Assembly: GCF_046105845.1 (NCBI RefSeq)
Contig: NZ_CP151004.1
Length of the DNA stretch: 64,000 nucleotides
From: Escherichia coli
GTDB taxonomy: Bacteria > Pseudomonadota > Gammaproteobacteria > Enterobacterales > Enterobacteriaceae
Direction: 5' to 3' (one strand)
Below, piece after piece: positions 43,101 to 46,100 of this stretch (the first letter of the stretch is position 1; every line of letters begins with the position of its first letter). Made by a program: the position numbers.

Positions 43101-46100
43101 ACATGGCCTTTCAGCTGTGTGGTGCCGCGGACCATGTTTTCACAAGCGATGATGTTCAGCGGGGATTCATTACCTTGTTCTTTACGTTTCACCAGCCCTT
43201 TGGCGATTGCCGGGGCAATACGTTCCAGCACAACCGGACCAACGGCGGTAGTGACTAAATCAACCTGAGCAATCAGATCAACGACATCATCACCAATGCT
43301 GCTGACGGCATTGACGCCGGAAACGGTATCTACCTGCTCGGTTTCACCGACCACATGAACCTGATAGCTATGACGGGCATTCAGGGCATCAAGTACCACC
43401 TGATTGACATCGGCAAACGTCAGTTGGATACCCGCGTCTGCCAGCAGTTTACCGATAAAGCCACGACCGATATTACCTGCGCCAAAATGTAATGCTTTCA
43501 TAGTATTAACCTTCATCAATGTTTTTACCCGAGAGGGCTGGGGTGAGGCTTTTCCCTCACCCAAACCCTCTCCATGTGGAGAGGGTGAGATTGTATTACT
43601 TACGACCAGCCAGCAGTTCCAGCACTTCATCCACGCTGGTGGTGTGTGCCAGACGCTCGATGACAGTCTCATCATCCAGTGCATTGGTCAGGCTGGTGAT
43701 AACCTGAATGTGCTCGTTGTTACGGGCAGCAATACCAATCACCAGACGGGCAATGTCATCTTCTTCTTCACCGAAGCGCACGCCTTCCGGGTACTGGCAG
43801 AACACGACGCCCGTTTTGAGTACGCGATCTTTCGCTTCAACCGTACCGTGTGGCACCGCGATAGACTCACCCAGATAAGTCGGGGTCAGTTTTTCACGAT
43901 CCAGCATCGCCTGAACATATTCCGGCTCAACGTAACCGCCTTTCACCAGTTGCTCACCAGCAAAACGAATCGCTTCTTCTTTGGTGGCCGCTTTGCGACC
44001 GAGGAAGATGTTCTCCGCGCCTAGCTTGAACAGGTTAGCACTGGAATCGTCAAAGCTGTCTTTCAGACTGTCTTTCACTTTTACTTCGTTTTCAGTATGG
44101 CGCTGGGCAGCAACCAGACGTTCGGTCAGGCTGGTGTACAGGCCGCTGTCGAGGAAGTTGGTCAGCGAAATATGCTGTGCCTGCGGAACCTGGCGCATAG
44201 CGCGTTCGGTCAGGTCACGGTGAGTGATGACCAGGTCCACATCTGGCGGCAGGTTGTTGATCGCGCTGTTAGTGACCGAAATCTGCGACAGACCTGCATC
44301 CTGAATTTTCTTACGCAGCACGCCTGCGCCCATCGCACTGGAACCCATACCGGCGTCACAGGCAACGATGATTTTACGTACGTGGCTCAGGTCGTTAGTC
44401 ACATCGCCCGCAGACAGCGGGGACGCACCTTTAGACTCAGCTTTCATGTCCTGCATACGACGAGTTGCTGCTTCAATATCATCTTCTTCTTTCACTTTGC
44501 TGGTTTTCAGCAGAATGGCAGAGACAACGAAGGAGACAGCCATCGCCGCACACACACCCGCGATGTTAGCGAAATAAGCACCTTTTGGTGTCATCGCCAG
44601 TACAGCAAGGATAGAACCCGGAGATGCCGGAGAAACCAGACCACCGCCCAGGATAGTCAGCGTGAACACGCCAGTCATACCGCCGAGAATAACGGCCAGA
44701 ATCAGACGTGGATTCATCAGCACATACGGGAAGTAGATTTCGTGGATACCACCCAGGAAGTGGATGATTGCCGCACCGCCCGCAGATTGTTTAGCACTGC
44801 CACGACCAAAGAACATGTACGCCAGCAGCACGCCCATACCTGGACCTGGGTTAGCTTCAATCAGGAAGAAGATGGATTTACCCAGTTCATGGGACTGCTG
44901 AATACCCAGCGGCGAGAAGATACCGTGGTTAATGGCGTTGTTGAGGAACAGGATTTTCGCCGGTTCAACAAAGATAGACGCCAGCGGCAGCATGTCATGG
45001 ACAACCATGAAGTTAACGCCCGCAGCCAGCATTTTGGACAGGGCTTCAACAATCGGGCCAATGCCGAGGAATGCCAGAATAGCGAGGATCATCCCGATGA
45101 TGCCAGCGGAGAAGTTATTCACCAGCATCTCAAAACCGGATTTGATCTTACCGTCTACCCAGCGGTCGAAGTGCTTAATGCACCAGCCGCCCAGCGGACC
45201 TGCAATCATAGAACCGAGGAACATCGGCATGTCTGCGCCGACGATAACGCCCATGGTGGTAATGGCACCGACTACGCCGCCACGTTCGCCGCCTACCAGC
45301 TTACCACCGGTATAACCGATCAGCAGCGGCAGGAGATAAGTGATCATCGGCCCGACCAGCTTCGCCAGCGTTTCGTTCGGTAACCACCCTGTTGGAATAA
45401 ATAACGCGGTGATGATACCCCACGCGATAAACGCGCCGATATTTGGCATCACCATGTTGCTGAGGAAACGACCAAAGCTTTGCACTTTGATCTTAATATC
45501 GGATGACATAAAAACACCCCTTCTTATGTTTGCTGTCGCGCAGGCTGGAAGCCCGAGGTTTTTTGTTAATGTGGCGGCAGAGGTAGCCGGACCTTGTAGA
45601 TACTGCGAAATCTGGCACTGAATCGGTTAACTGTCCAGTCGACGGCCTTTTGTGTGATATCGGTCACATAAATATAGGGGGTAGAGAGGTAATTGACGTG
45701 ATACTCATCACAAAACGCTTGTGTAAAAAAGCAACAAGGCGGCGATTTTCGCTAAAAATGGCATTTAAATGTGAGTAATGTCACATTTTTGTTTTGTTGG
45801 TTTGTTGAATCTTTGTGATCTGAATCACAAGATATTTTTTTACGGCGTTCACCTGATGTGATCTACAGCATGTTATGCCTTCGTCATAAAATCGTTATGT
45901 AACTAAGCAACTCATCACCTCTAAAAATTATTCTTTGGTGTTATGGCGAGAATCGCGAACCCGAATTATTGTCAAAATATCAGCCTGACTCCCTTCTGGC
46001 TGCCAGCCAAAAAACAACACCGATAAACGTGAATCCGAGGCAGATATGTTTCTAAACTATTTCGCGTTGGGAGTGCTGATCTTCGTCTTTCTGGTGATTT

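What the first reader, a model, noticed from the sequence alone, without database searches (positions are those of the whole stretch)
45653..45830. Three near-perfect CRP sites within 180 bp upstream of mtlA
Directly seen: three TGTGA-N6-TCACA sites with perfect half-sites. Established knowledge: the mannitol operon promoter is known for multiple CRP sites. This is expected biology rather than novelty, but it is a useful anchor for the annotation.
Basis: partly seen in the sequence, partly recalled or inferred. Interest (0 to 1): 0.2.

Follow-up and report, generated by a model that had tools for sequence, protein, structure and literature searches.

The report
Known CRP sites of mannitol operon
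The three perfect palindromes are real and are three of the five already published cAMP-receptor-protein (CRP) binding sites that switch on the E. coli mannitol operon, so this is a useful annotation anchor and not a discovery.

Summary
Observation confirmed. Exactly three perfect TGTGA-N6-TCACA sites occur in the 64-kb window (0.07 expected by chance). All three lie in the 536-bp mtlA/yibI intergenic region, 144-320 bp upstream of the mtlA ATG; mtlA is on the minus strand.

They are CRP5, CRP3 and CRP2 of the published five-site E. coli mtlADR operator. The centre-to-centre spacings 43/44/73/44 bp equal the published values exactly, which puts the transcription start at about 45602.

A CRP weight matrix built without mtl sites ranks the five sites 1, 3, 2, 5 and 10 of 63,979 window positions. 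In eight E. coli genomes no half-site column varies, while a third of the N6 spacer columns do. The 44-73-44 geometry recurs upstream of mtlA in 42 distinct Enterobacterales operators.

Published work (NAR 2026) shows that the 44-bp spacing lets MtlR, which has no DNA-binding domain, dock on pairs of CRP dimers and repress.

Novelty: already known. Interest: low.

By-products left unexplained: an invariant ACAAA 9 nt after the CRP2 core, and hypervariable N6 centres within E. coli.

The parts
45653..45668 (.). CRP5: TGTGATATCGGTCACA, 10/10 core, centre 45660.5 = -58.5 from the mtlA transcription start. This is the promoter-proximal, class-I-like site.
   Evidence: PWM score 19.75, rank 1 of 63,979. 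Half-sites are invariant in 8 E. coli genomes and conserved in 42 Enterobacterales operators. Published position and essentiality: PMC13421365.
45697..45712 (.). CRP4: CGTGATACTCATCACA, 9/10 core, centre 45704.5 = -102.5.
   Evidence: PWM score 14.62, rank 3. It lies 44 bp from CRP5 and 73 bp from CRP3, as published. Conserved across species without having been selected for by the scan pattern.
45770..45785 (.). CRP3: TGTGAGTAATGTCACA, 10/10 core, 17/22 to the full consensus, centre 45777.5 = -175.5.
   Evidence: PWM score 18.63, rank 2. Published position.
45814..45829 (.). CRP2: TGTGATCTGAATCACA, 10/10 core, centre 45821.5 = -219.5. Contains a Dam GATC at 45817-45820.
   Evidence: PWM score 12.73, rank 5. 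The 16-bp core is invariant in the 8 E. coli genomes; one flanking base (45811) differs in one genome. Reported essential for activation.
45857..45872 (.). CRP1: TGTGATCTACAGCATG, 7/10 core, centre 45864.5 = -262.5. A weak site that contains GATC at 45860-45863.
   Evidence: PWM score 10.99, rank 10. Its half-sites are poorly conserved across species (0.46 bits against 1.88 for CRP2-5). That fits the published result that it has 7 of 10 conserved bases, stays unoccupied and is dispensable.
45602..45637 (-). mtlADR core promoter: -35 TGGACA (45632-45637), 17-nt spacer, -10 CAGATT (45609-45614), transcription start about 45602 (plus or minus 1-2).
   Evidence: The start is inferred by placing the CRP5 centre at the published -58.5. 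The hexamers are read from the sequence. Columns 1-132 of the alignment, which include all of this, are identical to the K-12-like genome. The hexamers match only 8 of 12 consensus positions, so the generic promoter scan misses them, as expected for an activator-dependent promoter. The hexamer assignment is my inference, because the paper's figure is not held.
45617..45630 (+). Cra (FruR)-like operator ACTGAATCGGTTAA, lying between -35 and -10.
   Evidence: It matches RSTGAAWCSNTHHW, a consensus recalled from memory (Ramseier 1995), at 14/14 positions. It is one of only 3 matches in the window. The paper states that a Cra site exists in the mtl promoter. The exact location is my inference.
43596..45509 (-). 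mtlA, PTS mannitol transporter IICBA (637 aa), the regulated gene.
   Evidence: for the ORF. NCBIfam NF011663 scores 1323 bits against a cut-off of 589. RefSeq annotation.
42353..43501 (-). mtlD, mannitol-1-phosphate 5-dehydrogenase (382 aa).
   Evidence: NCBIfam NF002648 scores 878 bits and matches from residue 62 of the mechanical ORF. The trimmed ORF has no internal stops.
41766..42353 (-). mtlR, mannitol operon repressor (195 aa), the protein reported to dock on the paired CRP dimers.
   Evidence: Pfam PF05068 MtlR, 223 bits. R167 and L178, the residues reported as required for CRP contact, are both present.
45801..45805 (-). Invariant ACAAA (minus strand) at offset 8 of the 28-nt CRP2-CRP3 spacer, centred about 19 bp promoter-proximal of the CRP2 centre. 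Function unknown.
   Evidence: By my reading of the listing, it is exact at this register in 45 of the 46 Enterobacterales CRP2-CRP3 spacers listed and has one mismatch in the other, while the rest of the spacer diverges. Information content is about 1.9 bits per column.

Best explanation
The three palindromes are CRP5, CRP3 and CRP2 of the five-site cAMP-CRP operator of the E. coli mtlADR (mannitol) operon.

Activation. When glucose is absent, cAMP-CRP dimers occupy CRP2-CRP5. CRP5, centred at -58.5, helps recruit RNA polymerase to a weak sigma-70 promoter (TGGACA-17-CAGATT). The far-upstream sites CRP2-CRP4 are also needed for activation, by an architectural mechanism that has not been resolved.

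Repression. The 44-bp centre-to-centre spacing of the CRP2/CRP3 and CRP4/CRP5 pairs (43 bp for CRP1/CRP2) sets two CRP dimers in the orientation that lets an MtlR dimer bridge them. MtlR has no DNA-binding domain. Bridging blocks the CRP-polymerase contacts.

Induction. [quoted passage not shown]

What is shown here: the sites exist, their geometry is exactly the published one, they score as CRP sites, they are selectively conserved, and mtlA, mtlD and mtlR are present. What is taken from the literature: CRP occupancy, which sites are essential, MtlR docking and membrane sequestration. What is my inference: the exact transcription start, the -10 and -35 hexamers and the position of the Cra site in this window.
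For: - Chance: three perfect cores against 0.07 expected.
- Geometry: five sites with centres 44/73/44/43 bp apart. This is identical to the published -58.5/-102.5/-175.5/-219.5/-262.5 and 43/44/73/44 (PMC13421365, which cites Ramseier & Saier 1995). There are no indels relative to a K-12-like genome across the operator.
- Core match: CRP1 has 7/10 and CRP2 and CRP3 have 10/10 core bases, as the paper states.
- PWM: a matrix built from classical non-mtl CRP sites ranks the five sites 1, 3, 2, 5 and 10 of 63,979 positions. Three score at least as high as CRP4 (rank 3), against 0.27 expected in shuffles, and no shuffle clustered more than one such site.
- Footprint within E. coli: variable columns are 0/50 in half-sites, 10/30 in N6 spacers and 25/456 elsewhere.
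- Across species: a genome-wide scan for two perfect cores 43-46 bp apart returned 120 loci. 63 have an MtlA homologue adjacent. 42 distinct Enterobacterales operators, window included, share the 44-73-44 layout. The half-sites of CRP4 and CRP5, which the scan pattern did not select for in most loci, are near-invariant; mean information for CRP2-5 half-sites is 1.88 bits against 0.50 for N6 and 0.65 elsewhere.
- Genes: mtlA, mtlD and mtlR are confirmed, and MtlR keeps R167 and L178.
- Prevalence: the intergenic region is present at 95% identity or more in 5,402 of 5,426 complete E. coli genomes.
Against: There is no direct binding or expression evidence for this strain's alleles. Its N6 centres in CRP5, CRP4 and CRP3 differ from K-12. 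The PWM was built from site sequences recalled from memory, so its absolute scores are only indicative. How CRP2-CRP4 activate from -100 to -220 is unresolved even in the source paper. CRP5 at -58.5 is not at the canonical class I position of -61.5.
Confidence: 0.93

Rival explanations
1. The distal sites (CRP1-CRP3) also, or instead, control the divergently transcribed yibIH operon. Under this reading the cluster is a shared bidirectional control region and not purely an mtl operator.
For: The sites lie in a 536-bp divergent spacer, with yibI starting at 46046. A promoter-like TCTACA-19-TAAAAT on the plus strand (45861-45891) overlaps CRP1 and points toward yibI (read). Shimada 2014 lists TCTACA-19-TACAAT, the K-12 allele, among RNA polymerase holoenzyme-bound sites in the yibIH/mtlADR spacer (PMC3946193). 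yibI promoter fragments are induced in urine (PMC5404293). In Salmonella, transcription starts in both directions and Crp sites are drawn in the equivalent yibF-mtlA spacer.
Against: No paper found reports CRP dependence of yibI. Relative to the putative plus-strand promoter, CRP2 and CRP3 would be centred near -76 and -120, which are not canonical class I phases. The same 44-73-44 layout is kept at a fixed distance from mtlA in 42 distinct operators; I did not check the upstream neighbour in these loci. Chromosomal mutation of CRP2, CRP4 or CRP5 abolishes mtl expression, so the mtl role is established and this reading could only be an added function.
Confidence: 0.12
2. The palindromes are chance or structural inverted repeats, for example hairpin-forming DNA or RNA elements, with no regulatory role.
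For: Each site is a 5+5 inverted repeat. An Rfam scan gave one sub-threshold hit that overlaps the region (rnk leader, 21.6 bits against a gathering score of 50, E = 0.67).
Against: Only 0.07 sites are expected by chance, and 0 of 100 shuffles reach 3. Variation falls in the loop-equivalent N6 while the arms are invariant with a fixed sequence, not covarying as stems would. The sites lie upstream of the transcription start, so they are not in the mtlA mRNA. No Rfam family reaches its threshold. Published gel shifts and chromosomal site mutants show function.
Confidence: 0.01
3. The sites belong to another CRP-linked system: FNR sites, Sxy-dependent CRP-S sites, or a CytR/CRP repression complex of the deoP2 type.
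For: All of these use CRP/FNR-family palindromes, or tandem CRP sites with a co-regulator that binds between them. MtlR docking on two CRP dimers is conceptually close to CytR (discussed in the paper).
Against: There is no TTGAT-N4-ATCAA (FNR) or TGCGA-N6-TCGCA (CRP-S) pattern anywhere in the window. The cores are canonical TGTGA/TCACA. The spacings are 43-44 and 73 bp, not the roughly 52-53 bp of CytR-regulated tandem sites (that figure is from memory). MtlR, unlike CytR, has no DNA-binding domain.
Confidence: 0.02

Closest known systems
E. coli K-12 mtlADR operator-promoter with five CRP sites (Ramseier & Saier 1995, Microbiology 141:1901; Lee et al. 2026, NAR, PMC13421365)
   Same: It is the same locus. 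The gene order mtlA-mtlD-mtlR with divergent yibIH is the same. The five sites are at identical positions with identical spacings (43/44/73/44), all 50 half-site bases are identical, and the sequence from the mtlA ATG to just beyond the -35 hexamer (alignment columns 1-132) is identical.
   Different: Only allelic differences exist. This strain's N6 centres differ from K-12 in CRP5 (TATCGG against TATCAA), CRP4 (TACTCA against CGTTCA) and CRP3 (GTAATG against GTAGTG), and there are a few substitutions elsewhere in the spacer, which is 97.8% identical overall.
CytR/CRP repression complexes (deoP2, cdd, tsx)
   Same: A repressor is held at the promoter through protein-protein contacts with two DNA-bound CRP dimers, and it turns the activator into part of a repression complex (paper discussion).
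   Different: CytR is a LacI-family DNA binder with its own operator between the CRP sites. MtlR has no DNA-binding domain and, according to the paper, reads only the 43-46-bp spacing. The spacings here are 43-44 bp.
malK / malEp multi-CRP class III promoters
   Same: Several CRP sites are arrayed upstream of one promoter.
   Different: The malK sites are 34 bp apart and do not recruit MtlR unless re-spaced to 44 bp.
papBA far-upstream CRP activation (site at -215.5)
   Same: A CRP site more than 200 bp upstream is needed for activation. The paper cites it as a precedent for CRP2 at -219.5.
   Different: pap uses a single distal site together with Lrp and Dam phase variation. mtl uses four cooperating sites. 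Whether GATC methylation in CRP2 and CRP1 matters here is unknown.

Membership tests
Canonical CRP (CRP-N) binding site | Palindromic core TGTGA-N6-TCACA with a 6-bp centre | tested here: met
   Three sites match 10/10, one 9/10 and one 7/10.
Canonical CRP (CRP-N) binding site | Weight-matrix score within the range of experimentally known sites and far above the genomic background | tested here: met
   Scores are 19.75, 18.63, 14.62, 12.73 and 10.99, against a training-site median of 13.1 (range 3.5-18.0). Ranks are 1, 2, 3, 5 and 10 of 63,979. Caveat: the training sites were recalled from memory.
Canonical CRP (CRP-N) binding site | Non-coding position upstream of a promoter | tested here: met
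   All five lie in the intergenic region 45510-46045.
Canonical CRP (CRP-N) binding site | Half-sites conserved while the centre is free to vary (phylogenetic footprint) | tested here: met
   Variable columns are 0/50 in half-sites against 10/30 in N6 across 8 E. coli genomes. Information is 1.88 against 0.50 bits across 42 Enterobacterales operators.
Canonical CRP (CRP-N) binding site | Physical binding of cAMP-CRP | not testable with these tools
   Published gel shifts exist for the K-12 allele. This strain's alleles have not been tested.
E. coli mtlADR operator (five-site class III CRP promoter) | Five sites centred at -262.5, -219.5, -175.5, -102.5 and -58.5 (spacings 43/44/73/44) | tested here: met
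   The centres 45864.5, 45821.5, 45777.5, 45704.5 and 45660.5 give 43/44/73/44 (compared).
E. coli mtlADR operator (five-site class III CRP promoter) | Located directly upstream of mtlA-mtlD-mtlR | tested here: met
   Family models for all three genes and RefSeq annotation of matching genomes.
E. coli mtlADR operator (five-site class III CRP promoter) | Transcription start and promoter as mapped by S1 nuclease | tested here: inconclusive
   The sequence here is identical to K-12, and TGGACA-17-CAGATT sits at the expected place. However, the start in this window is back-calculated, not measured.
MtlR-CRP anchoring platform | Adjacent CRP sites 43-46 bp apart centre to centre | tested here: met
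   CRP4/5 are 44 bp apart, CRP2/3 44 bp and CRP1/2 43 bp. CRP3/4 at 73 bp is the published non-binding interval.
MtlR-CRP anchoring platform | An MtlR protein (PF05068) with the CRP-contact residues R167 and L178 | tested here: met
MtlR-CRP anchoring platform | Formation of the ternary MtlR-CRP-DNA complex | not testable with these tools
   Published for K-12 and Salmonella.
CytR/CRP tandem-site operator | CRP sites about 52-53 bp apart with a CytR operator between them (feature recalled from memory) | tested here: not met
   The spacings are 43, 44 and 73 bp.
CRP-S (Sxy-dependent) or FNR site | TGCGA-N6-TCGCA, or TTGAT-N4-ATCAA | tested here: not met
   Neither pattern occurs in the window.

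The most novel reading that the evidence does not exclude
The operator may carry sequence information beyond the CRP half-sites and their spacing, in two respects.

(i) An invariant ACAAA sits 9 nt after the CRP2 core, centred about 19 bp promoter-proximal of the CRP2 centre. It is conserved as strongly as the CRP half-sites, from Escherichia to Budvicia. It could be a contact point for an undescribed partner. From memory, that is the position where the polymerase alpha C-terminal domain docks next to CRP, so one candidate is the alpha C-terminal domain in a looped remote-activation complex; another DNA-binding protein is the alternative. Either would address the open question of how CRP2-CRP4 activate from -100 to -220.

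(ii) The N6 centres of CRP3, CRP4 and CRP5 vary about six times more often than the rest of the spacer among E. coli lineages. That may reflect lineage-specific tuning of CRP affinity.
Probability: 0.15. Interest if true: 0.4.

Novelty: already known. Interest (0 to 1): 0.1.

Why it matters
As found, it matters only as a firm annotation anchor. It fixes the strand and start of mtlA, the mtlADR promoter and the mtlA/yibI divergent spacer in this window, and it shows that the window is E. coli. The locus itself is of current interest because the 44-bp spacing of these sites was recently shown to be how a repressor without a DNA-binding domain finds its single target. The cross-species survey made here extends that spacing rule. 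The 44-73-44 layout appears in 42 distinct Enterobacterales operators, and 43-44-bp pairs appear in Pasteurellaceae and Orbaceae. The survey also exposes one strongly conserved spacer motif that the published model does not explain.

Tried and rejected
- Generic sigma-70 and terminator scan of 45450-46100. It found only a plus-strand ATGACA-16-TATGTT inside the mtlA start region and a weak hairpin, both no more than chance. It missed the real, weak mtlA promoter. I briefly considered a cis-antisense RNA like Vibrio MtlS, but there is no support: Rfam found nothing above threshold.
- A second, class-II-type promoter. A TATATT at 45671-45676 (minus strand) would place the CRP4 centre at about -41.5. 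I rejected it as unsupported because those six columns are poorly conserved across 42 operators and S1 mapping reported one start.
- Explaining ACAAA as an ArcA (TGTTA), IHF, marbox or extended -10 element. The flanking positions those motifs need are not conserved. The alpha C-terminal domain idea fits the position, but an invariant C is atypical for an A-tract minor-groove site.
- My first mapping of mtlR and mtlD from the VCSW7 annotation used a wrong offset and gave stop-filled translations. BLAST showed that the window is only 97.7-98.6% identical to VCSW7 outside the intergenic region, with a shorter mtlA-mtlD spacer. The coordinates were then corrected.
- Figge et al. 1994 (PMC205122) is not held, and Ramseier & Saier 1995 is not in the library. 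The published coordinates are therefore taken from the 2026 paper that cites them.
- The 57 non-mtlA loci of the genome scan. Seven are Enterobacterales or Pasteurellaceae loci whose stored stretch ends before mtlA would begin. The rest are in other phyla, including tandem repeats in Tannerella, and were not pursued.
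Full report
**Observation**

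The pattern TGTGA-N6-TCACA occurs exactly three times in the 64-kb window, at 45653-45668, 45770-45785 and 45814-45829. Dinucleotide-preserving shuffles give 0.07 matches on average and never three.

Allowing mismatches adds one 1-mismatch site inside the same cluster, CGTGATACTCATCACA at 45697-45712. At two mismatches the window as a whole shows no excess (19 found, 26 expected), so the signal is confined to this cluster.

The sites lie in the 536-bp spacer between a 637-aa minus-strand ORF (43596-45509) and a 120-aa plus-strand ORF (46046-46408). No ORF of 50 aa or more covers them.

**Identity of the locus**

- The minus-strand ORF is MtlA (NCBIfam PTS mannitol transporter IICBA, 1323 bits).
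- The next ORF downstream is MtlD.
- After it comes a 195-aa MtlR (PF05068, 223 bits).
- The plus-strand neighbour is YibI (DUF3302), followed by YibH.
- The 751-bp and 536-bp queries hit 5,404 of 5,426 complete E. coli genomes at 95-100% identity, always annotated mtlA | yibI.
- The window is therefore E. coli. The spacer is 100% identical to strain VCSW7, but the flanks are only 97.7-98.6% identical, so it is a different strain.

**Comparison with the published promoter**

Lee et al., NAR 2026 (PMC13421365), citing Ramseier & Saier 1995 and Figge et al. 1994, describe five CRP sites. They are centred at -262.5, -219.5, -175.5, -102.5 and -58.5 from the S1-mapped start, with spacings of 43, 44, 73 and 44 bp. 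CRP2 and CRP3 have all 10 conserved bases and CRP1 has only 7.

In the window the five best sites are centred at 45864.5, 45821.5, 45777.5, 45704.5 and 45660.5. That gives 43/44/73/44 bp, with core matches of 7, 10, 10, 9 and 10.

The alignment with a K-12-like genome has no indel across the operator, and the first 132 columns, from the mtlA ATG to just beyond the -35 hexamer, are identical. CRP4 and CRP1 were overlooked.

Placing CRP5 at -58.5 puts the start at about 45602 on the minus strand. TGGACA (45632-45637), a 17-nt spacer and CAGATT (45609-45614) sit upstream of it (my assignment). This weak promoter was too poor for the generic scan. A 14/14 match to the Cra consensus (recalled from memory) lies between the two hexamers at 45617-45630, in line with the paper's statement that Cra represses mtl.

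I built a symmetrised matrix from 21 classical CRP sites (lac, gal, malT, deoP2, araBAD and others). None were mtl sites, and the sequences were recalled from memory. The matrix reproduces the textbook consensus. It ranks the five sites 1, 3, 2, 5 and 10 of 63,979 window positions. Three sites score at least as high as CRP4, against 0.27 expected in shuffles, and no shuffle clustered more than one such site.

**Conservation within E. coli**

Across eight E. coli genomes spread over the similarity ranking, the counts of variable columns are:

| Region | Variable columns |
|---|---|
| CRP half-sites | 0 of 50 |
| N6 centres | 10 of 30 |
| Rest of the spacer | 25 of 456 |

 The predicted scores of the alleles change by only about 1-2 bits.

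**Conservation across species**

I scanned one genome per species (GTDB) for two perfect cores 43-46 bp apart.

- 63 loci have an MtlA homologue (65-100% identity) immediately adjacent.
- Seven more are Enterobacterales or Pasteurellaceae loci whose stored stretch ends before mtlA could begin.
- The remainder are in unrelated phyla, several of them tandem repeats.

Forty-two distinct Enterobacterales operators, including the window, share the 44-73-44 layout. They run from Escherichia through Pantoea, Serratia, Pectobacterium and Brenneria to Budvicia. Pasteurellaceae and Orbaceae have two or three perfect sites 43-44 bp apart, plus a third at 40-41 bp.

Stacked without gaps, the mean information content per column is:

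| Columns | Bits |
|---|---|
| CRP2-5 half-sites | 1.88 |
| CRP1 half-sites | 0.46 |
| N6 centres | 0.50 |
| Everything else | 0.65 |

 The perfect pair was selected for by the scan pattern, but CRP4, CRP5 and the 73-bp interval were not. Poor conservation of CRP1 agrees with the published finding that it is unoccupied and dispensable.

**Mechanism**

Combining the anatomy shown here with the published experiments gives the following picture.

- cAMP-CRP occupies CRP2-CRP5.
- CRP5 acts like a class I site.
- CRP2, CRP4 and CRP5 are each essential, and CRP3 is partly so.
- MtlR has no DNA-binding domain. It bridges two CRP dimers only when they are 43-46 bp apart and masks the surfaces through which CRP activates transcription.
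- With mannitol, dephosphorylated EII-Mtl sequesters MtlR at the membrane.

The window has all the parts, including MtlR R167 and L178. How the far-upstream sites activate is unresolved in the paper itself; it offers looping or anti-silencing.

**Rivals**

- Chance or hairpin elements are excluded by the statistics, the conservation pattern and the absence of any Rfam hit above threshold.
- FNR, CRP-S and CytR-type arrangements fail their defining patterns.
- A shared role for the divergent yibIH promoter cannot be excluded. A TCTACA-19-TAAAAT element overlapping CRP1 points toward yibI, and the K-12 version is listed among holoenzyme-bound sites. No evidence for CRP dependence of yibI was found, and the sites keep a fixed register with mtlA across the 42 operators.

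**By-products**

- (a) ACAAA is exact at offset 8 of the 28-nt CRP2-CRP3 spacer in 45 of the 46 Enterobacterales CRP2-CRP3 spacers listed (my count from the listing). The rest of that spacer is free to vary. The paper reports no spacer sequence requirement for MtlR binding.
- (b) A block AAATAT two bases upstream of CRP2, a CCC block before CRP5 and a T-run in the 73-bp interval are also conserved.
- (c) The N6 centres are variation hot spots within E. coli.
- (d) Dam GATC sites sit inside CRP2 and CRP1. A Salmonella preprint reports an unmethylated GATC pair in the equivalent spacer.

None of these changes the verdict.

**Verdict**

The feature is already known and experimentally characterised, so interest is low.

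Noticed in passing
window 45801-45805 (minus strand ACAAA; plus strand TTTGT): An invariant ACAAA lies at offset 8 of the 28-nt CRP2-CRP3 spacer, centred about 19 bp promoter-proximal of the CRP2 centre. By my count from the listing it is exact in 45 of the 46 Enterobacterales operators listed and has one mismatch in the other, while the surrounding spacer diverges freely. It is absent from the Pasteurellaceae and Orbaceae pairs. The 2026 paper does not mention it and found that arbitrary spacer sequences support MtlR binding.
   Followed up: partly
window 45658-45663, 45702-45707, 45775-45780 (N6 centres of CRP5, CRP4, CRP3): Among 8 E. coli genomes, the 6-bp centres of the CRP sites vary in 10 of 30 columns, against 25 of 456 in the rest of the intergenic region (Fisher p about 1e-5). 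CRP4 alone shows five alleles. The half-sites never vary. This could be neutral positions in an otherwise constrained spacer, or tuning of CRP affinity. The sample is small and the count is not tree-aware.
   Followed up: partly
window 45817-45820 and 45860-45863: The only two Dam GATC sites in the mtlA/yibI spacer lie inside CRP2 and CRP1. A Salmonella methylome preprint (10.64898/2026.01.27.702048) reports an unmethylated GATC pair overlapping the Crp-site region of the equivalent yibF-mtlA spacer. This suggests that bound CRP protects the sites from methylation.
   Followed up: partly
window 45861-45891 (+): A promoter-like TCTACA-19-TAAAAT points toward yibI, and its -35 hexamer is the N6 centre of CRP1. 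K-12 has TACAAT, and other strains have TGAAAT, at the -10 hexamer (variable columns 45888-45889). Shimada 2014 lists TCTACA-19-TACAAT for this spacer.
   Followed up: partly
window 45832-45837 (+ ATATTT), 45677-45680 (- CCCC), 45724-45733 (- T-run/ACAC): There are further conserved blocks in the cross-species stack of 42 operators: AAATAT two bases upstream of CRP2, a C-run before CRP5, and TTTTTTACAC in the 73-bp CRP3-CRP4 interval. They may be Fis or other architectural sites. None was identified.
   Followed up: no
window 43502-43595: The mtlA-mtlD spacer is 94 bp here but 228 bp in strains VCSW7 and K-12-like 2_0. The difference probably reflects the presence or absence of a REP-type element.
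   Followed up: no
L053-L055, L069, L095 (Tannerella and Prevotellaceae MAGs); L071, L083, L088, L089, L091, L123, L125: In termite-gut-type Bacteroidales MAGs, perfect TGTGA-N6-TCACA palindromes occur as 23-bp tandem arrays (TGTGACGGGAATCACAACGNCGT) and as clustered TGTGACCTACATCACA repeats. These are unrelated to mtl and of unknown nature.
   Followed up: no
window 54433-54454, 38579-38600, 53103-53124: These are the other high-scoring CRP-like 22-mers in the window (PWM scores 13.6, 12.6 and 12.5; ranks 4, 6 and 7). I did not examine their context.
   Followed up: no
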